A stretch of 64,000 nucleotides of DNA, taken from positions 299,150,001 to 299,214,000 of the forward strand of contig OZ024743.1 of NCBI GenBank assembly GCA_964016885.1, in the 5' to 3' direction. Made by a program: the position numbers and the translations under genes. This document shows, one piece after another, positions 8,980-64,000 of this stretch. This stretch comes from Eledone cirrhosa. Lineage: Eukaryota. The notes under the pieces were generated by a model. The model saw only the letters and a program-made list of their open reading frames with translations, did not search any database and was not told the DNA's origin. The stretch's first letter is position 1. Every line of letters begins with the position of its first letter.

Positions 8980-9148
8980 GAGAGATAGATAAATATACAC
9001 GGGTGTGTATGATTGTGTATAGAAGATTATATTATTAAGCGGAATTCCAACTTAGTCTGATTTACTCGTTTTATTTACAATCCTTTAACATTTATAATGG
9101 TATTATAATGAAATAGTATGATAGAATATTAAATGTTATGTGTTAATT

Positions 9149-9185
9149 GAACAAGTACTTTCATGCTTTCGCAATCTTCAGGTTC
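9149..9185 (-). ncRNA. Minimal type I hammerhead ribozyme (left arm)
   Basis: Exact reverse complement of 9259-9295. Confidence 0.8.
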
Positions 9186-9258
9186 ATAATGTGTGGTGAC
9201 AGTCAAGTTTGCAATTTTCAACTGTGAAAAATTCAACTTGACTGTCACCACACATTAT

Positions 9259-9295
9259 GAACCTGAAGATTGCGAAAGCATGAAAGTACTTGTTC
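9259..9295 (+). ncRNA. Minimal type I hammerhead ribozyme (right arm)
   Basis: gaac-CTGAAGA-t-tgc(gaaa)gca-t-GAAA-gtac-TT-gttc. Stem I gaac/gttc, GNRA-capped stem II, palindromic AGTACT stem III. Confidence 0.8.
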
Positions 9296-9408
9296 AATTA
9301 ACACTTAACATTTAATATTCTATCATACTATTTCATTATAATACCATTATAAATTTTAAAGGATTGTAAATAAAACGAGTAAATCAGACAACGTTGGAAT
9401 TCCTCTTA

Positions 9409-9472
<64 letters not shown>

Positions 9473-15327: not shown

Positions 15328-15331
<4 letters not shown>

Positions 15332-15457
15332 AACACCGTACGGCATAAATTCAGGCTGTTCAGTTTGTTTACAAACGAACAAAGCGGGCGCTATAATAAG
15401 CGTCTGCTAAACTGATACGTACATATATGTATGTGTACCTGTATGTATATATATGTA

Positions 15458-15552
<95 letters not shown>

Positions 15553-15662
15553 GTGCATGCTACTGTACGTCTGTATACATATATGTATGTACGTACACAT
15601 ACATACTTACATTTAAGTAAGTGCCGTACTAAGAGTGAGAAATGAAATTTCGTTTTCATTTT
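15328..15662 (+). mobile_element. Truncated copy of the non-coding HHR-bearing family also at 41.3-41.8 kb and 63.7-64 kb
   Basis: ccttaacaccgta.ggcataaattcaggctgttcag...gagtgagaaatgaaatttcgttttcattt is shared among the three loci. Confidence 0.85.
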
Positions 15663-15669
15663 ATTACAA

Positions 15670-15734
<65 letters not shown>

Positions 15735-41230: not shown

Positions 41231-41293
<63 letters not shown>

Positions 41294-41298
<5 letters not shown>

Positions 41299-41810
41299 AG
41301 TATGCATGTATACGTACATACATATATGTATACAGACGTACAGTAGCATGCACATATATATATATATATATACATATATACATACATATGCATACAGGTA
41401 CACATACATATATGCACGTATCAGTTTAGCGGCGCTAACGTCGCTTTGTTCGTTTGTAAACAAACTGAACAGCCTGAATTTATGCCATACGGTGTTAAGG
41501 CAACCACGTCACCTTTTTGTTCAACACTGACACAGGAACGATGTACTAGTTTCAAGCTTGTTAGCTATCATCAGCACCGTTTACCCATCTGCCAGATAGA
41601 ACAAAGCGACGTTAGCGCCGCTAAACTGATACGTGCATATATGTATGTGTACCTGTATGCATATGTATGTATATATGTATATATATATATATATATGTGC
41701 ATGCTACTGTACGTCTGTATACATATATGTATGTACGTATACATGCATACTTACATTTAAGTAAGTGCCATACTAAGAGTGAGAAATGAAATTTCGTTTT
41801 CATTTTGTTT
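41294..41810. mobile_element. Fold-back insertion of the non-coding HHR family, flanked by (TA)n
   Basis: 41294-41451 is the reverse complement of 41599-41756. The loop carries the HHR. Same family as 15328-15662 and 63717-64000. Confidence 0.9.
41538..41580 (-). ncRNA. Minimal type I hammerhead ribozyme
   Basis: Exact reverse complement of 63789-63831. Confidence 0.85.
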
Positions 41811-41812
41811 CA

Positions 41813-41886
<74 letters not shown>

Positions 41887-42976: not shown

Positions 42977-43678
42977 GCACACATTGTGTGACTGACGGAA
43001 GCCACTCAAATTATATATATATATATATGATAAAAGGAAAAAATTAAACGAAATTTCATTTCTCATACTTATATATATGATAAAATATTTGATTAAAATT
43101 ATTTCAGCCATGATGAGCTCACATTTTTGTTGATTCAGAATTATATTATCCAAACTGTCATTATTCCTTCAATATGTGATTTGAGTGAAATTCTGCTGCT
43201 ATTTCTTGGAATACAAATGACTGTTACCTAGCAATTCTAGTTTATTACTGTAGTTACAATAACTCTCCCTTATTTATAATCGGCAATTTCTTGAAATTTC
43301 TAAACAGCGTCTCACGCTTTCATTCATTTCTACTGTGTTTCTGTCGGCTAAAATTGTTGCTCTTTCAATTGTATTGATTAAGCTCTATACTGCAAATCAA
43401 GACTATTTTAGTTGTATTGTTCACTTCATGAATAACTTGCATAAATTTCGGTTGCTGTAAGTCAAATGAACTCAAAATATGCAGTCAATACTATCAATCT
43501 TGATAATTATGGTAAAAATCTTGCTGTTGTTCTTATTCCTCGCCATTTCTTAATGAGAGAATTATATCGCCTAAATAGACTTTCGTATGATAAACAAAAA
43601 AAAAATACAAAAGACCCCCCCCCCCACACACACACATTAAAGACTTACTGGTAACAATACTTACTTCACAAATGCTAC

Positions 43679-46943: not shown

Positions 46944-47072
46944 CAAAGGTTTTATTTAAAATTGTTGGGTTACAACAAGTAAATATTTTATAACTGATAT
47001 AAAGCACTCGACAAGTTTTGGAGTAGATATACGATATTAAACAAATGGAAACTATATTTATAAAACCATATT

Positions 47073-47138
47073 TATTTCATTATACATATTTCGGGGATAC
47101 CATATTAAAAATATGGCATGCCTTCTTTAGATAAAATA
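47073..47138 (-). ncRNA. Hammerhead motif with G5A core change (left arm)
   Basis: Reverse complement of 52479-52544, but the core reads CTAAAGA. Confidence 0.65.
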
Positions 47139-48783
47139 CAATATATAAACAGTTTTATAAATAATTTTGACGTACCATAAATATTGAGCAACCGTTATGT
47201 AGGAAGCCGGTTTGGTAGTGAGATGTTTATAAATATTTATTGTTAAGCACAGTTAAAAAGAAAGACGGAGAAAAAGAAGAAATGTATGTAAAGAAAAAAC
47301 AGAGAGAAATAGAGAGAGATAGGGGAGAGAGAAATATTGAGGAGGTGAGAAAAGAGATGCAGCTGAAGGCAACAGATGAATAATAATAATTCATCATACA
47401 AATTGAGAGATTTAGGAGGGAGGGAGTACTGTAATTATTTAGTTATAGTGTTAAGGACAGTTAGGGAGGAGACGGAGAGAAATAAAAAATGAAGAGAAAA
47501 CAGAGAGAGAGAAAGATAGAGGTGGGGGGGAAAAAGAAAGAGGTAGACCAAATAATAATAATTATATAGGGGGCGGTGAAAATCAAGAGAGGAATAGGAA
47601 AGAAATAAGAGAGAAACTTGAGAGGCAAAGTCAGAACAAGAGATACATAGACTTCATCATATATAAAGAGGGAGGAGAAGAAAGAGCTATATCTAGAGAG
47701 AGGGATGATAGATTTACATCTTTACGTTATGTCCTATCAATTTGAATTATCAATTCATATGAACTGGGTAATATAATGTAAATATCAATATTCATGAATG
47801 AGACATAGATGTATAATGTGTGAAAATAATTTTGCTCTATAATGACCATATTTTTAGTTTAAAATTCTGAGGTCGATGTACCAAAAACTGAGATAAAACT
47901 TCAAAATAAAATAAATACGGAAATATATAAGTATATACATACCCATGCATATGCACTTTCCGGAAAAGGAAAGAAAGAGAGAAAGAGAAGGTCATCTCAA
48001 GTTCTAGTTGATATTATAGACATACCCATGATTTTACGTGATCAACTCTGTAATTTCTTGTTTCACAAAAAAAATGTTTTTCCTTGTGTTATAAAAGGTT
48101 TCACTATATATATATACATAAAAAATAAACGATTAATATTCTTGCCCTCACATACATGATTATCGTTCATGTATAGAATATTATGCATATCTGTAACATA
48201 TCCAGAACTATAACCACACATACATATAGATATATATGTATGCACACATACAGGTACATAGACAGATAAAATATACTCTGTAATCATTCCATATGCATAT
48301 TAATACATATGGCCTTTGTACAGAGACAACCAGATATCAATATATCGGCACAGAAATATCAAAACGTTAAAATATTTTCATCACTCCCTAGAGTATCTTG
48401 GGCCACAAAAACACAGTATGCTTCTCATATCAACCACAGAAATCTACCCTTCCAATTTATCTGACAATATATTGCCAAGTTCATTAGAAGCAATCAGAAT
48501 AAAAAAGCAAACAAAAAACCAAAAATTATTCAACAAAACTTATTTAGCAGAAATCATTTAAAGGATTTAGGAGACCCTGTTGTTCTACGGATGTTCTTAT
48601 ATTTAGTATAGAAGTTTATCTTCCGTAAAATTTATTCAATAGGTTGGGAGCATCTACATTTTAGAGTAGTTTAATTACACCATTAGTTTATATTTATGAA
48701 GAAGGTTTAAAAGAAAAAGTTGAAGGAATCGAAAGATTTATCGTCAGGTTTCATACATTAATTAAATATCTTAATTAATTATA

Positions 48784-50980
48784 CTACATTTTAAATTTAT
48801 ATTTATATTTAAACGTTGAGTTTAATCTATGTCTGCAGCAACTGAATAAATTGCTCCTTAAATTAAGGGAATTTTTGGATTTTAATATAAAGAATATCTC
48901 CTCCACACAGAGGTCACATGTCTCAGATGAGGAATTAAAAGGAATCCCTCTTGAGACAATATTCCAAAACATCGAATACCCAACGTTATCATGTTTAAGT
49001 TGCCAGAGTAAGCCTGATAGTGAGGTTGAAGATTGTTTGGATCTGTGAAAGAATTCTTATGATTATTGTAGCGAAGTTTAAATTCTGTCGAGGTGGAACC
49101 AACATAGTTAAAAGAATTTAAGTTAGTTTTAACATTACAATTGTATATTATATTTTTAACTAAGCAATTGTTATTTAACGGACATTTAGATTTATTTCTA
49201 CAGTTACAGTTGTTTAACTGGATATTGTTTTGGTTATTATCGGTATTTTGGTTAGGTTTTAGATTCCTATTATTTATTCTGTTAATATTTTGTGCTAAAT
49301 TTTTGGTGGACGAGTAAGTTAATTTTATAGTATGTCTATTAAAAATTGAGTGATATTTATGTGTTCTAGGGAAGCGTTTGTCAAGAGCATTAAAAAATAG
49401 TTTAGCAATGTGGGTTTTAATATTTAGTGAGAAAGGCGGGGGGGGGGGGGACCATATTATATTTCTAGTTCTAATTCTTTTCCGGCTTTTGGAATTATTG
49501 TAATGTTTTCTATTATAGTTGTTAAAGTTGTTACCGTAATTAAAATTGTTATTATTTTGGTTAGTTTGCCTATTATTATCGATGTACTTAATTTTATCAC
49601 TATATCCTGCTCTAGCTAACGCTTCATTGTAATACTGCGCTTTTTCGTCGAAAATATTTTTATTAGATGAAATTCTTGTGATACGTTCTTGAACAGAGTT
49701 CACTATAGTATTTTTAACAGATCTGGGGTGATTAGAGTTAAAATTGACATAATTCAAGTTTTCATTTAGTTTGTGAAATGGATAGTGAAGACATGTGTTG
49801 AGATTTAGTGTTACATCTAGGAAATTGACTATTCTATGGTTATTCTCTATTTCAATTTTTAGATTAAGGTAATTAAAAAATTGTATAATTTGTTTTCTTT
49901 TTCTATTTAGTTCAGAGTTATTATTTTCAATAAGTAAAAGCATGTCATCACGATATAATCCTCCGGTTACACCAGGTATTTTTCTATGCAGCGAATTAAT
50001 TATAAATAGGCCCACAAGGTCCGTTACCTGAGCTGAGTCAGATGATCCCATAGTAATGTCGAAATTATTATCTCTATCTGCCCTAGTCCATAGTTGGTTA
50101 TTAAATTCTATCAATGTTTTCCTTGCCGATAATATATTGTGCATTTCATTGCTAGTTAGGTCTGTATGTTTGAATGCGTAATTTAGTGCCTTATTCAGTA
50201 GATTAGGGGTAATAGATGAATAGTAGTTAGCAATATCTAGTTGAATAAATTTATTATTATTGTTATATTTAATTTCTTTAAACCACTCAATAACATCACC
50301 AGTCCCCTTCCATAAGTTTAAGTTATGTAAATTATGTAAGTTTTTAATTTGCTGTATCACCCTGTCTAGAATGTTTTTGCTAAGTTTACCCAGGTCAGAT
50401 TTTGATGGTGCAATCAATCTGACTGGCAAATCATTTTCAAAATTTCTTTTGTGATCTTTCATATTGATCTTGGGTTTCCTAGGCAAGAAGGGTTGTGTTT
50501 TGTTCTCAATGTCTAACTCATGCATTATACAAGATGCCTCAACATTCATTTTTTCCAGTTCGTCCTTATTTGCTACCTTGTACTTTTTCCTTAGTTCTTT
50601 CAATATAAGGCCATTATACATGTCTTTTTGCACTCCATAAATGTTGTTGGTTTTGTCCGATTTCACCAAGATCTTCTCTGTTCTCTCCAAGCCTTCAATA
50701 TTATCCTTAATGCTTCTTAGATAGTCCTGGCCTTTGAAGTTTCTCTTGAATTTGATTCCTTGGATGATAGAAATGATATCGTTTTCAAAATCCATTAATA
50801 GTTTGTTGGGGGGTGGATTTTTTTTAGATTTGAAAACTTTATCTAAGTCTGAAACATTTTCATTTAGATTAGATTTATCAAAGTGGAAGGCACGCCACCT
50901 GATTCTTCTTATAAAAGAGTCTGATTTTTCTATTAATTGTTTAATAAAGTCATTGTTCTTAATAAATTTTAATAAATCTT
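48784..50980 (-). pseudogene. PLE reverse transcriptase plus C-terminal GIY-YIG endonuclease; one frameshift, 5' end clipped
   Basis: RRIRWRAFHF upstream of the annotated Met, VRLIAPSKS, QLDIANYYSSI, FDITMGS, GLYRDD, NFLDVTL, CNCx5Cx5C linker, IIY..YVGST..FKLRYNNH. After a shift at ~49040: CDLCVEE...LNLRS...CRH. Confidence 0.92.
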
Positions 50981-52478
50981 AATAAATTTTACGCAAGATA
51001 AACTTCTATACTAAATATAAGAGCATCCGTAGAACAACAGGGTCTCCTAAATCCTTTAAATGATTTCTGCTAAATAAGTTTTGTTGAATAATTTTTGATT
51101 TTTTGTTTGCTTTTTTATTCTGATTGCTTCTAATGAACTTGGCAATATATTGTCAGATAAATTGGAAGGGTAGATTTCTGTGGTTGATATGAGAAGCATA
51201 CTGTGTTTTTGTGGCCCGAGATACTCTAGGGAGTGATGAAAATATTTTAACGTTTTGATATTTCTGTGCCGATATATTGATATCTGGTTGTCTCTGTACA
51301 AAGGCCATATGTATTAATATGCATATGGAATGATTACAGAGTATATTTTATCTGTCTATGTACCTGTATGTGTGCATACATATATATCTATATGTATGTG
51401 TGGTTATAGTTCTGGATATGTTACAGATATGCATAATATTCTATACATGAACGATAATCATGTATGTGAGGGCAAGAATATTAATCGTTTATTTTTTATG
51501 TATATATATATAGTGAAACCTTTTATAACACAAGGAAAAACATTTTTTTTGTGAAACAAGAAATTACAGAGTTGATCACGTAAAATCATGAGTATGTCTA
51601 TAATATCAACTAGAACTTGAGATGACCTTCTCTTTCTCTCTTTCTTTCCTTTTCCGGAAAGTGCATATGCATGTGTATGTATATACTTATATATTACCGT
51701 ATTTTTTTTATTTTGAAGTTTTATCTCAGTTTTTGGTACATCGACCTCAGAATTTTAAACTAAACATATGGTCATTATTGAGCAAAATTATTTTCACACA
51801 TTATATATCTATGTCTCATTCATGCATATTGATATTTACATTATATTACCCAGTTCATATGAATTGATAATTCAAATTGATAGGACATAACGTAAAGATG
51901 TAAATCTATCATCCCTCTCTCTAGATATAGCTCTTTCTTCTCCTCCCTCTTTATATATGATGAAGTCTATGTATCTCTTGTTCTGACTTTGCCTCTCAAG
52001 TTTCTCTCTTATTTCTCTCCTATTTCTCTCTTGATTTTCACCTCCCCCTATCTAATTATTATTATTTGGTCTACCTCTTTCTTTTTACCCCCACCTCTAT
52101 CTTTCTCTCTCTCTCTGTTTTCTCTTCATTTTTTATTTCTCTCCGTCTCCTCCCTAACTGTCCTTAACACTATAACTAAATAATTACAGTACTCCCTCCC
52201 TCCTAAATCTCTCAATTTGTATGATGAATTATTATTATTCATCTGTTGCCTTCAGCTGCCTCTCTTTTTTCACCTCCTCACTATTTCTCTCTCCCCTATC
52301 TCTCTCTATTTCTCTCTGTTTTTTTTTACATACATTTCTTCTTTTTCTCCGTCTTTCTTTTTAACTGTGCTTAACAATAAATATTTATAAACATCTCACT
52401 ACCAAACCGGCTTCCTACATAACGGTTGCTCAATATTTATGGTACGTCAAAATTATTTATAAAACTGTTTATATATTG

Positions 52479-52544
52479 TATTTTATCTGAAGAAGGCATG
52501 CCATATTTTTAATATGGTATCCCCGAAATATGTATAATGAAATA
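52479..52544 (+). ncRNA. Type I hammerhead ribozyme (right arm)
   Basis: tattttat-CTGAAGA-[aggcatgccatatt/aatatggtatcccc]-GAAA-tatgta-TA-atgaaata, with an 8-bp stem I. Confidence 0.8.
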
Positions 52545-53570
52545 AATATGGTTTTATAAATATAGTTTCCATTTGTTTAATATCGTATATATATATATAT
52601 AAATATGTATGTATATGATTGTGTGCACATGTGTAGATGTATGTATAAGTTTGCATCTACTTATGTGTATGTATATTTTTAGTTGAGTATCAATATAACT
52701 ATACCTCTATCTTAATGTGGGTATATGAACTTTGTGATCTATGAAATTTATACGTTTTGACTATGTCAACATGTATTTATCTGAGTTTGATTATTTATAC
52801 ATAGACATACTTGAAAGTATTTTAAGGTGTATCATACGCTGTATTATACTAAATGCAATTTACCACACCGTACTATATTGTGTTACATTATATTATATTA
52901 TTATATTATTGTATTGTAAAATAAAGTACCAGTAATGCGCTGAGTTATTGCTGGCCTTGGGCTAGAAGTAGAAACAATTATATTATATTATTGTATTACT
53001 ATATTTCATTTTCTTATTATAATTTTCATCTTTTAATATACTATCTTTCCTAGACATGTCCTTAATTTATATTTACCTAACATCTCCATACAACACAACT
53101 CACATTTAATTTTTACATTCCTTTTAAACTTCACTATCCCATATACATCCAACTATCAATTTGACAATCCCTTTCTTCCTAATAGATTGTTTATGGCAAT
53201 TCTATTATTAACACCATTCAACTAATCCTTTCAAAGGGTCATGACCTCAACTAAAGTTCATTATTTTTCATCTTAACATCATATGAAAAAAAACCTTCTG
53301 ATTGGTTAGTTCTTCAACTACCTCCAAAGAATGTCATAGAACTTTAACATAATACTAATTTACTACTAATTTTGAATACAATTATTATTGCTTTTGACAA
53401 CAGCTGGTGATATGCATGCAAGTAAATATTCTCTTTATCTGATATTTTGTAACTAACCTTACATAGATCGATATCAAAGTATAGTTACGATATATTATCA
53501 TCACCTAGAAACGATCGTAAAGCAGTGAAGTAAATTTCTAATGACTTCATTTTTTATTTCATTGTTTTAA

Positions 53571-57741: not shown

Positions 57742-57806
57742 TATTTCATTATACATATTTCAGGGATACCAAATTAAAATATGGTATGCCTTCATCAGAC
57801 AAAATA
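57742..57806 (-). ncRNA. Type I hammerhead ribozyme
   Basis: Minus strand tattttgt-CTGATGA-aggcatacca/tggtatccct-GAAA-tatgta-TA-atgaaata. Confidence 0.78.
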
Positions 57807-59998: not shown

Positions 59999-61847
59999 AC
60001 CAACAAGACCCGTATGCGGAGCTAATATAGCTAGCAACTACAGGATCTCCTACTTGCTCTCAATGATTATACGCCCCATAATCAAGATGTCCCCAGATGT
60101 ATGTGACAGTACAGAGGACCTCCTGAGCGGAATCAGTGAGTGCACAAAAACAGGAGCCTATCCAACTGCATAATAGGCAGCATGGATGTGGTGTCACTGT
60201 ACCCATCCAATAACATTGTTTTGCTGTGAAAAGATGTGTGGAGATGATCATTGAGAATGAGGTGGAGTTCTGCGACGTCGACACAGACGAACTGGGCCTC
60301 CTACTTAGACTTACCTACGACACTGACTACCTAGACAGCCATGACTTTAGATGTTTCTGCCCTAGTAGACCTATAAGAGGTAGACCCCCACCATAACCTC
60401 AATGGCAAAAAAGACTCCCATGGGAAGGTGGATTGGGTGGACCAAAGCTATACGGACCCCCCAAAACAATGATCAAGTAAGAAAAATGGTCGCACATGCA
60501 ATAGGGGCTAGTATCAAAACTACCCTAAAGGGCCACATATTTAAGTTCAACGAGAAAATCTACATCCAAAATGAGGGAGCAGCCATCGGCGCCAGCATAG
60601 CTGGTGATGTTGCCAACCTTTTCATGGTATGGTGGGAAAAGAGACTTGAAGATCTCCTTAATGAAAGCTCCATAGACCTCATCATGTACTCTCGTTATGT
60701 AGACGATATCAATATAGTTATAAGAACACCCCCACTAGAGAGCACTAACAAGTTTGATTTAGAACGTAGCACGATGGAAAGCATCCAGCAGATAGCTAAT
60801 TCCATACACCAGAGTATAACTGTAACTATCGACTTCCCTTCCAAACACCCTAACAATAGATTACCTGTATTAGACACAGAACTCTGGATTAACACTATAG
60901 ACGAGAGAGCCCAAATTCTCCACTCACACTATGCTAAACCCATGGCCTCCAAATACCTGATACTCAAAAACTCAGCAATGTCCAGTAGTGCTAAGTTTAA
61001 TATTCTGATCGCAGATTTGGTACGAGTGATGAAGAATGTGTCCCGCATGTGCGACCCAACAGAAATGGAAAGACACATCCAATACTTCATCAACCAGTTC
61101 TCTAGCTACAACCAAAGAGACAGAGTCAGAGTATACGAAGGAGCCATGGACAAGTATAAGACCCTCATAGAACTGGACATGAAAGGAATTTGCCCATTAT
61201 ACAGGAGCAAATCATGGAATAGCTTAGATAGGGCTAGACATAAGATAGGGAAAGCCACCTCATGGTACGACAACCAGAGATACCAGAGTGTCATGTTTGT
61301 GGACGCCACCCCTGGAGGGAAATTAGCTAACCAGTGTAGAAAGGCCCTGAGAAAGACCCACTTAAAAATAAAGGTGGTAGAAAAGCCAGGAACCACCATA
61401 AAATCCCTGATCAGCAAAACCTACCCTTTTAAGAAAACCCACTGTACCAATAGGAAATGTATCATATGTAAGGTGAACCCCCGGATAAACTGTAAAACTA
61501 GAAACGTAGTCTATAGCATAAGATGTACAGAGGGTACTTGCAGAAACATGACAACAACATACCTAGGTGAGACAGCTCGTAGCATAGGTGAAAGGATAGA
61601 CCAACACTGGGGGGAACTAAAAGGACGAAAAAACGGGTCAGTACTATAGGAACATGCTAGACAACAACATGACGGTAACATAGACAACATAGAAATTAGA
61701 ATAATATCTAAACATAGAAATGACCCAGCAGATAGGCAAATTAGAGAGGCCAGTGAAATAGAAATTAGAAGACCAAAGTTAAACAGAAAGAATGAGTGGA
61801 ATAACAACAACACCCAAACAAACAACACTGACCTAAGAGAAGTATAA
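59999..61847 (+). pseudogene. PLE reverse transcriptase plus GIY-YIG endonuclease (disrupted)
   Basis: TRPVCGA, GSMDVVSLYPS, QNEGAAIG, RYVDD, LPVLD, HYAKPMAS, Cys-rich linker, NVVYSIRC...YLGETARSIGERIDQH. The frame continues past TAG 61647 (EHARQQH...RQIREA...LNRKNEW) to TAA 61845-61847. Confidence 0.92.
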
Positions 61848-63094: not shown

Positions 63095-63599
63095 TATATA
63101 AAGAATGAATAATAACAGGTAGACATCATAAAAAGGTAATTTATTCCGTGTGCTTACAAGTGTTTCCACGGTGGTACTGCAGCCTAGTTCCGCTACGTGC
63201 AAATTCACAAGTATTTGCAGAACTCGAATATCCAATGCTGTGACCATTGTTTCCTTAGAGCAGAATGGTAAATGTACAATGTAAAAACCCTTAAGTGGGG
63301 TTGTTGGGGAAGATAGAGTGGAACAACCCCTGCATATCTTTCCTTCTCTCTCCTTCTTCCCTACTTTTCTCTCTTCCTGTTCCACTCTATCTTCCCCAAC
63401 AACCCCACTTAAGGGTTTTTACATTGTACATTTACCATTCTGCTCTGAGGAAACAGTGGTCACAGCATTGGATATTCGAGTTCTGCAAATACTTGTGAAT
63501 TTGCACGTAGCGGAACTAGGCTGCAGTACCACCGTGGAAACACTTGTAAGCACACGGAATAAATTACCTTTTTATGATGTCTACCTGTTATTATTCATT

Positions 63600-63609
<10 letters not shown>
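63095..63609. repeat. Near-perfect palindrome with ~230-bp arms and HHR
   Basis: 63095-63325 is the reverse complement of 63378-63609. CT-rich spacer. Ends in (TA)n. Confidence 0.95.
63441..63552 (+). ncRNA. Hammerhead ribozyme with large structured insertion in stem II
   Basis: tgct-CTGAGGA-a-acagtggt...accaccgt-g-GAAA-cacttg-TA-agca. The mirror copy (63151-63262) has CTAAGGA. Confidence 0.7.
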
Positions 63610-63638
<29 letters not shown>

Positions 63639-63716
63639 AATATACACATACATATACATATATACACATATATATACATACATATATATACATATATATA
63701 TAAGTTGAAAAAAAAA

Positions 63717-64000
63717 ATGAAAACGAAATTTCATTTCTCACTCTTAGTATGGCACTTACTATCGTTCAACTATCTAGCAGATGGGTATACGGTGCTGATG
63801 ATAGCTAACAAGCTTGAAACTAGTACATCGTTCCTGTGTCAGTGTTGAACAAAAAGGTGACGTGGTTGCCTTAACACCGTATGGCATAAATTCAGGCTGT
63901 TCAGTTTGTTTACAAACGAACAAAGCGGCGTTGTAATAAGCGTCCGCTAAACTGATGCGTGCATATATGTATGTGTACCTGTATGTATATGTATATATGT
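63717..64000 (+). mobile_element. Third copy of the non-coding HHR family, with an inverted 3'-end fragment in front (63717-63760)
   Basis: 63717-63760 is the reverse complement of 41760-41805. 63770-63927 is the reverse complement of 41442-41597. Confidence 0.88.
63789..63831 (+). ncRNA. Minimal type I hammerhead ribozyme
   Basis: acggtg-CTGATGA-t-agct(aaca)agct-t-GAAA-ctag-TA-catcgt. 6-bp stem I, palindromic ACTAGT stem III. Confidence 0.87.

What the first reader, a model, noticed from the sequence alone, without database searches (positions are those of the whole stretch)
41294..41810. Small non-coding family with an identical minimal HHR in separate copies: candidate retrozyme
Seen: three copies (15328-15662, 41294-41810, 63717-64000) of a ~0.45-0.5 kb ORF-less unit. 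The 43-nt HHR is identical at 41538-41580 and 63789-63831 while nearby positions differ. Two copies have PLE-type inverted 3' ends. The HHR lies near the 5' edge of the visible unit. Inference: a young, non-autonomous ribozyme-processed retroelement, possibly with a circular RNA intermediate.
Basis: partly seen in the sequence, partly recalled or inferred. Interest (0 to 1): 0.72.

Follow-up and report, generated by a model that had tools for sequence, protein, structure and literature searches.

The report
Penelope-mobilised hammerhead retrozyme fragments
The three copies are truncated pieces of a 466-base non-coding repeat that carries a predicted self-cutting RNA motif, occurs over ten thousand times in this animal genome, and was likely pasted into TA repeats by Penelope-type jumping-gene enzymes copying one RNA, probably a circle, from both sides of a DNA break: a new member of a known class.

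Summary
The identical 43-nt hammerhead at 41538-41580 (minus strand) and 63789-63831 is real; copy 15328 has none, and no window copy is a whole unit. The true unit is a 466-bp monomer without RT or endonuclease coding. Its 31-nt core has 10,718 exact genomic copies; 22 of 53 position-sampled loci hold head-to-tail hammerhead units and some arrays exceed 30. This is a metazoan non-LTR retrozyme family, not a coding element's 3' UTR. Insertions carry a Penelope (PLE) footprint: 3' ends at two fixed sites about 60 nt apart, running into (TA)n; 23 of 24 scorable inverted pairs use one of each; both arms share one haplotype (240 of 242 sites); two sampled insertions are fused inside the ORF of a young Hydra-clade PLE. 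5' ends do not pile up at the cut site, so cut linear monomers are not the main template; a circle is likely but not shown, and long arrays also grew at DNA level. No RNA run was listed. The class is published, and this scan already noted what appears to be the same family elsewhere in this genome.

The parts
41291..41599 (-). Copy 2, hammerhead-bearing arm: monomer positions m411 across the cut site to m247-251 (short end, S), running into (TA)n. m1 is the base after the predicted cut.
41538..41580 (-). Type I hammerhead motif, predicted cut between 41544 and 41543
41599..41818 (+). Copy 2, inverted partner arm m93 to m308-310 (long end, L), running into (TA)n; no hammerhead
41760..41818 (+). 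About 60-nt tail between the S and L ends, present on one arm only
15328..15672 (+). Copy 1: single 5'-truncated arm m44 to the L end, (TA)n on both sides, no hammerhead
63700..63760 (-). Copy 3, tail-only arm m252 to m310 (stops at the S site)
63763..64000 (+). Copy 3, hammerhead-bearing arm from m404; ends at the S site about 90 nt beyond the window edge
   Evidence: L001, L037
63789..63831 (+). Type I hammerhead motif identical to that of copy 2, predicted cut between 63825 and 63826

Best explanation
These are truncated insertions of a high-copy, 466-bp, non-coding tandem repeat with a predicted hammerhead ribozyme (a metazoan non-LTR retrozyme), likely reverse-transcribed into (TA)n microsatellites by Penelope-like element (PLE) proteins from a single RNA template that is probably a ligated circle. 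Steps: (1) tandem loci would be transcribed (inferred). (2) Neighbouring hammerheads would pair through the ACUAGU palindrome, cut as a dimer and release monomers that ligate (inferred from structure and from published retrozymes). (3) A PLE GIY-YIG endonuclease would cut (TA)n and both DNA ends would prime inside the RNA at two fixed TA-like sites, S and L, about 60 nt apart (ends shown, enzymes inferred). (4) The two cDNAs run across the cut site for 0.1 to several units, stop at scattered places and are joined head to head (shown as sequence). (5) A young Hydra-clade PLE is the best candidate donor of the proteins (inferred from two fusions; a Neptune-like family is not excluded). (6) Some loci later grow by DNA-level duplication (shown as higher-order repeats). 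The window's three copies are sub-monomer dead ends.
For: 466-bp period, 6 of 6 intervals in L002. 10,718 exact cores; 28,537 with a looser core pattern, control 5. 22 of 53 position-sampled loci have two or more hammerheads in one arm, 77 of 92 arms cross the cut site; long arrays hold at least 34, 30, 29 and 16 same-strand cores. Subfamily changes sit at tolerated positions (N7, loop II) and helix I changes G.U to U.G and A-U between subfamilies; 104 of 104 cells paired across 8 hand-picked variants, 9 pairs changed on both sides. Double hammerhead -19.0 against best dimer fold -20.9 kcal/mol; a 2-bp helix III cannot close in a monomer. 3' ends: 46 L, 34 S, 10 other of 90; 73 of the 80 L/S ends run into TA; 23 of 24 pairs with both ends at L or S are L+S, p 9e-7. 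PMC8557442 names inverted 5'-truncated copies, a one-sided tail and (TA)n targets as PLE traits; coding PLE families in these loci show the same two-end pattern. Arms share haplotype at 240 of 242 diagnostic sites (about 90 mismatches expected), 27 of 28 pairs. Tail-only arms stopping at S: window copy 3, L092, and 3 of 7 pairs in tail-selected loci. Fusions inside the ORF of one Hydra-clade family in L064 and L067, both keeping the L+S rule; that family has many open 821-aa frames at 97-99% identity. 5' ends within 10 nt of the cut site: 1 of 92 (3.9 expected if uniform) and 0 of 30 in loci chosen without the exact core.
Against: A circle is not shown: an uncleaved linear multimer predicts the same arms, and coding PLE copies here also extend across their own hammerhead cut sites. 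The conserved G10.1-C11.1 pair is U.U; in PMC7229834 the axolotl variant with that mismatch cut 22% in an hour as a monomer, and in bioRxiv 10.64898/2026.07.22.740005 8 of 9 predicted retrozyme dimers did not cut in vitro. In the circular fold the three helix I pairs next to the core have probability only 0.16-0.26. Long arrays show period-7 to -8 variant patterns, L143 period 2, and L073 and L123 have mixed units, so unit number does not simply record rounds of a monomer circle. Most double changes come from two distant families, one (310 bp) not shown to be homologous. Donor identity is open: tail length (58-62 nt) matches Neptune-like families (58-61), not the Hydra family (about 95), and one Neptune fusion (L014) is long end plus long end. 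Sister-family arms start at m5, m10 and m12 in three of 40 loci. Fusions could be deletions at insertion.
Confidence: 0.7

Rival explanations
1. Same non-autonomous PLE-mobilised repeat, but the template is a long uncleaved linear transcript of a tandem array; the hammerhead is slow, regulated or inherited and no circle is needed.
For: Shared haplotype, crossing of the cut site and scattered 5' ends fit this equally. Both arms of L073 share an ordered run of variant units. U.U at the base of helix II; low in vitro activity reported for PLE hammerheads (PMC4209133) and for 8 of 9 frog retrozymes (bioRxiv 2026).
Against: Hammerhead pairing and core are kept across subfamilies and a distant homologous 467-bp family, which argues for function. 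Young arrays of 9-13 units are almost invariant (1 of 1730, 0 of 1381 and 4 of 4273 scored bases). Circles were shown in coral, mussel and axolotl (PMC7229834).
Confidence: 0.2
2. The copies are only 5'-truncated pseudo-LTRs (3' ends) of a coding PLE, with no independent element.
For: Type I hammerhead, tail, inverted arms and TA targets are all pLTR traits (PMC8557442, PMC4209133). A parent could be rare; only 53 position-sampled loci of this subfamily, 40 of sister subfamilies, 20 tail-selected and the top-hit loci were read.
Against: Upstream of the hammerhead the sequence continues into the previous unit; 32 of 53 loci run through the L site into the next unit. No fixed junction to an ORF; RT or GIY-YIG ORFs upstream of single arms belong to families with their own 3' ends or are joined at different monomer positions. 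The fused Hydra family has its own unrelated pLTR and hammerhead.
Confidence: 0.06
3. A satellite DNA spread by DNA-level mechanisms (unequal crossover, circular DNA), with the hammerhead incidental.
For: Higher-order repeats in arrays over 30 units.
Against: Polar structure with fixed 3' ends and scattered 5' ends, L+S pairing, TA targeting and fusions to PLE coding sequence; median locus size about 2 units.
Confidence: 0.04

Closest known systems
Metazoan non-LTR retrozymes (Cervera and de la Pena 2020, PMC7229834: parts 2 and 3 of 6, Discussion and passages read, supplement not readable; review PMC7761336: passages)
   Same: Short non-coding tandem units with one type I hammerhead each, low GC, thousands of copies, dimers to long multimers, weak palindromic helix III, highly self-paired monomer, coexistence with PLEs. 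U.U at the base of helix II as in axolotl HHR_Amex2.
   Different: Monomer 466 bp, just above the 150-450 bp range given there; contains an internal TA microsatellite hairpin. Circles and cleavage were shown there and are untested here. The parts read do not describe two-armed insertions with fixed ends.
Vertebrate retrozymes as non-autonomous PLE derivatives (Li, Clavereau, Pollet, bioRxiv 10.64898/2026.07.22.740005: parts 1-3 of 5 read, supplements closed)
   Same: Non-autonomous PLE derivative in tandem; length within their 51-972 bp range; most families with few units; meets their rule of two consecutive hammerhead units with fold energy under -5 kcal/mol (-8.7).
   Different: Their link rests on co-occurrence and pLTR homology in frogs; here no homologous coding parent was found and the link rests on insertion anatomy and fusions. 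They favour local unequal crossover for arrays; both routes show here.
Insertions of endonuclease-bearing PLEs, Hydra and Neptune clades (Craig et al. 2021, PMC8557442: passages and the Hydra section read)
   Same: 5' truncation, partial tandems, inverted upstream copy, tail on one end, (TA)n targets, hammerhead in the repeat.
   Different: No ORF; tail about 60 nt rather than 30-40 (coding families in this genome have 58-95 nt).

Membership tests
Metazoan non-LTR retrozyme | Type I hammerhead motif in each unit | tested here: met
   Core and helices by sequence and paired changes; G10.1-C11.1 replaced by U.U; Rfam below threshold
Metazoan non-LTR retrozyme | Head-to-tail tandem units of a few hundred bases | tested here: met
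   466-bp period; 22 of 53 loci with two or more in one arm. The window's own copies are sub-monomer.
Metazoan non-LTR retrozyme | No protein-coding capacity, no LTR structure | tested here: met
   Longest open frames 81 aa sense and 114 aa antisense, made largely of the microsatellite; no similarity of the monomer region to two PLE proteins. PBS and PPT were not searched for separately.
Metazoan non-LTR retrozyme | Low GC, highly self-paired monomer | tested here: met
   -153 kcal/mol, z -8.3, much of it from the TA-rich hairpin; 67% paired as a circle
Metazoan non-LTR retrozyme | Self-cleavage in vitro | not testable with these tools
   Needs transcription assay
Metazoan non-LTR retrozyme | Expressed as linear and circular monomer RNA | not testable with these tools
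Metazoan non-LTR retrozyme | Target-site duplication longer than 4 bp when present | tested here: inconclusive
   Ends lie in (TA)n, so a duplication cannot be read
Non-autonomous PLE derivative | PLE insertion anatomy: inverted copy, one-sided tail, microsatellite target | tested here: met
Non-autonomous PLE derivative | Sequence homology to the pLTR of a coding PLE | tested here: inconclusive
   None among the PLE families seen in the fetched loci; the genome could not be searched exhaustively
Autonomous PLE | RT plus GIY-YIG ORF joined to the repeat at a fixed position | tested here: not met
   0 of 53 sampled loci; two fusions at different positions with a family that has its own pLTR
PLE min-HHR (PMC4209133) | No helix III, long helix II, G10.1-C11.1 | tested here: not met
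   Has AC-UA-GU helix III, 4-bp helix II and U.U

The most novel reading that the evidence does not exclude
The insertions are a genomic record of two PLE reverse transcriptases primed from both ends of one (TA)n break at two fixed internal sites of the same small RNA circle, chasing each other round it, with occasional switches onto the RNA of the Hydra-clade PLE that supplies the enzyme. That would show the proposed retrozyme cycle from sequence, name its donor, and explain the one-sided tail of PLE insertions in general.
Probability: 0.35. Interest if true: 0.7.

Novelty: new member of a known kind. Interest (0 to 1): 0.42.

Why it matters
Retrozymes are published, but in the papers read their mobilisation by PLEs is proposed from shared features and phylogeny, and the origin of PLE inverted ends and tails is called open (PMC8557442). 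This family gives a small defined substrate (466 nt, two priming sites) and a candidate enzyme with many open frames, so both questions can be tested in vitro. It also accounts for tens of thousands of ribozyme motifs in one genome. The window's three copies are themselves ordinary dead fragments.

Tried and rejected
RNA evidence: no RNA holder listed; laying four contig sets of unknown kind showed the head-to-tail joint, which tandem DNA gives as well, so it says nothing on circles. A 5' hot spot at m404 seen in the top-hit loci was an artefact of where my query began; it vanished in the position-ordered sample. Low variation in the hammerhead is biased by selecting loci on the exact core and was not used. 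A-to-G editing scars: none in bulk (62 A>G against 61 T>C), in loci mostly selected on an unedited core, so edited copies could be missed. Internal snRNA-type promoter: the best site for a matrix from 8 host U1/U2 promoters fell at m364 with plausible spacing, but scored -2.5 against 14-32 for true promoters and 166 of 200 shuffles reached it: unsupported. The newt promoter paper was not held; I saw only a citing passage in PMC2220036. L013, L076, L097 and L055 put coding elements beside the repeat but look like nested insertions at microsatellite or element ends. Rfam microRNA hits are the TA microsatellite. Paper searches for hammerheads or retrozymes with octopus or cephalopod and for retrozyme with inverted, tail and template switch listed no description of this family or anatomy; the supplement of PMC7229834 could not be read and bioRxiv supplements are closed, and either may list such a family. 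The host species was not determined.

Full report
Observation. The 43 nt at 41538-41580, read on the minus strand, equal 63789-63831. They form a type I hammerhead layout: helix I of 6 bp, CUGAUGA, a U.U pair and 4-bp helix II, GAAA, the palindrome ACUAGU and a GUA cut site. Copy 15328 lacks the motif. Rfam does not call it at threshold. The window lies in a 3.0-Gb genome.

The real unit. A search of the genome with window 63762-63925 gave 43 matches (40 of 47 candidates scored, a lower bound). Many are head-to-tail arrays; L002 gives a 466-bp period, and I number the monomer from the predicted cut (m1). The exact 31-nt core occurs 10,718 times, control 0; a looser pattern 28,537 times, control 5, adding sister subfamilies of 420-433 bp. 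To avoid picking by similarity I fetched all 53 loci behind the first 100 exact hits on the largest contig. They hold 92 arms; 22 of 53 loci have two or more hammerheads in one arm; the median locus is about 2 units. On this map the window's copies are sub-monomer pieces.

Is the hammerhead real? Differences between subfamilies fall at N7 and loop II. One helix I pair is G.U here, U.G in the sister family and A-U in others. Across 8 variants that I picked, including a distant 467-bp family homologous over m240-395 (score 95, shuffles at most 42) and a 310-bp family not shown to be homologous, all 104 cells pair and 9 pairs change on both sides. Helix III cannot close in one copy; the double hammerhead is within 2 kcal/mol of the best dimer fold, the arrangement that PMC4209133 and PMC7229834 describe. 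Against: U.U replaces the usual G-C at the base of helix II, the core-proximal helix I pairs are weak in the circular fold, and 8 of 9 predicted frog retrozymes did not cut in the 2026 preprint. Activity is predicted, not shown.

Not a coding element's 3' end. The monomer has no RT or endonuclease similarity. In 32 of 53 loci an arm runs through the outer end site into the next unit. 5' junctions are scattered. Of 32 frames upstream of single arms, four matched RT or GIY-YIG profiles; these and the Hydra-type frames belong to LINE-like or PLE families with their own ends or are fusions at varying positions. A rare coding parent is not excluded.

Insertion anatomy. Of 90 3' ends not at a fetch edge, 46 fall at m298-311 (L), 34 at m240-256 (S) and 10 elsewhere; 73 of the 80 run into TA. 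Of 32 inverted pairs, 2 touch an edge and 6 have one end elsewhere; 23 of the remaining 24 are L+S (p 9e-7). Sister subfamilies use the homologous sites. PMC8557442 gives inverted truncated copies, a one-sided tail and (TA)n targets as PLE traits, and coding PLE families in these loci show two ends with tails of 58-61 (Neptune-like), about 80, about 90 and about 95 nt (Hydra) against 58-62 here. In 28 pairs with two or more shared diagnostic sites, the arms agree at 240 of 242 sites where about 90 mismatches are expected: one template per insertion, or one arm copied from the other. Tail-only arms that stop at S occur in window copy 3, L092 and 3 of 7 pairs among 20 tail-selected loci, as expected if two primings on one RNA collide.

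Donor. One PLE family with RW, DKT and CxCx5C motifs, the Hydra marks in PMC8557442, has coding sequence in 3 of the 53 loci; in two it is fused to the repeat inside its ORF with no TA between, and both insertions keep one L and one S end across the two RNAs. It has many open 821-aa frames. Other mixed pairs: another Hydra family with a sister copy (L140), a third PLE-type end (L031, L058, L081) and a Neptune-like endonuclease piece (L014). So PLE machinery is well supported, the exact family only moderately.

Circle or line. 77 of 92 arms cross the cut site, and 5' ends avoid no region and favour none: 1 of 92 within 10 nt of the cut, 0 of 30 in tail-selected loci, though three of 40 sister loci start at m5-12. 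Cut linear monomers are therefore not the main template. A ligated circle or an uncleaved multimer remains. Young arrays are nearly invariant, but arrays of about 30 units show higher-order repeats and some short ones have mixed units, so DNA-level growth also occurs. I put the circle at about three to one on the strength of the kept ribozyme and the published precedent.

Comparison and verdict. It works like, and by every DNA-level feature tested is, a metazoan non-LTR retrozyme (PMC7229834), in line with the preprint that derives them from PLEs. The searches named under Tried and rejected listed no paper on this family, with supplements unread. Earlier notes of this scan describe a 467/468-bp family and a 422-bp family in this genome that appear to be this family and its sister; I reproduced the two-end anatomy before seeing them, and could not reproduce the editing scars or a pile-up of ends at the cut site that one note claims. 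New member of a known kind; interest 0.42.

Noticed in passing
window 47024-52593, ORF 48882-50978 (-): Hydra-clade-like PLE (RWR, DKT, CxCx5C) with long inverted arms and a tail of about 90 nt; related pLTR hammerheads at 57798 (-) and 59170 (+).
   Followed up: partly
window 60384-61649 (+), ends near 60000 and 62370: Neptune-like PLE fragment (Cx4Cx2C linker, weak RVT_1 hit) with two ends 58 nt apart.
   Followed up: partly
window 21656 (-): Hammerhead belonging to the 3' repeat of the young Hydra family that is fused to the retrozyme in L064 and L067.
   Followed up: yes
window 8989-9455: Inverted pair of another hammerhead motif (9181 -, 9263 +), family not identified.
   Followed up: no
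window 43029-43074 (-): Isolated diverged tail fragment of this repeat group between TA runs.
   Followed up: partly
window 63095-63608: 231-nt inverted repeat, 99% complementary, beside copy 3; translates like a Hydra PLE piece in tblastn of L001/L037.
   Followed up: no
L054:5970-8400: Separate young 310-bp two-armed hammerhead array with the same U.U helix II layout, inserted next to a copy of this family.
   Followed up: partly
L036:1941-2560; L067:5194; L109:1364: Further hammerhead repeats: a distant 467-bp homologue with G-C at the base of helix II, and another family; both carry an ATGCAAAT octamer or a close variant upstream of the ribozyme.
   Followed up: partly
L031:6961-7600: 3' end of an abundant PLE-type family (80-nt tail) that seems to carry a U3-A8 core hammerhead with a stable helix III; seen whole in one copy only.
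   Followed up: no
L181-L202: Host U1 and U2 genes in tandem arrays share an upstream AATTA (-90), TCAGT (-57), TATATA (-30) pattern.
   Followed up: partly
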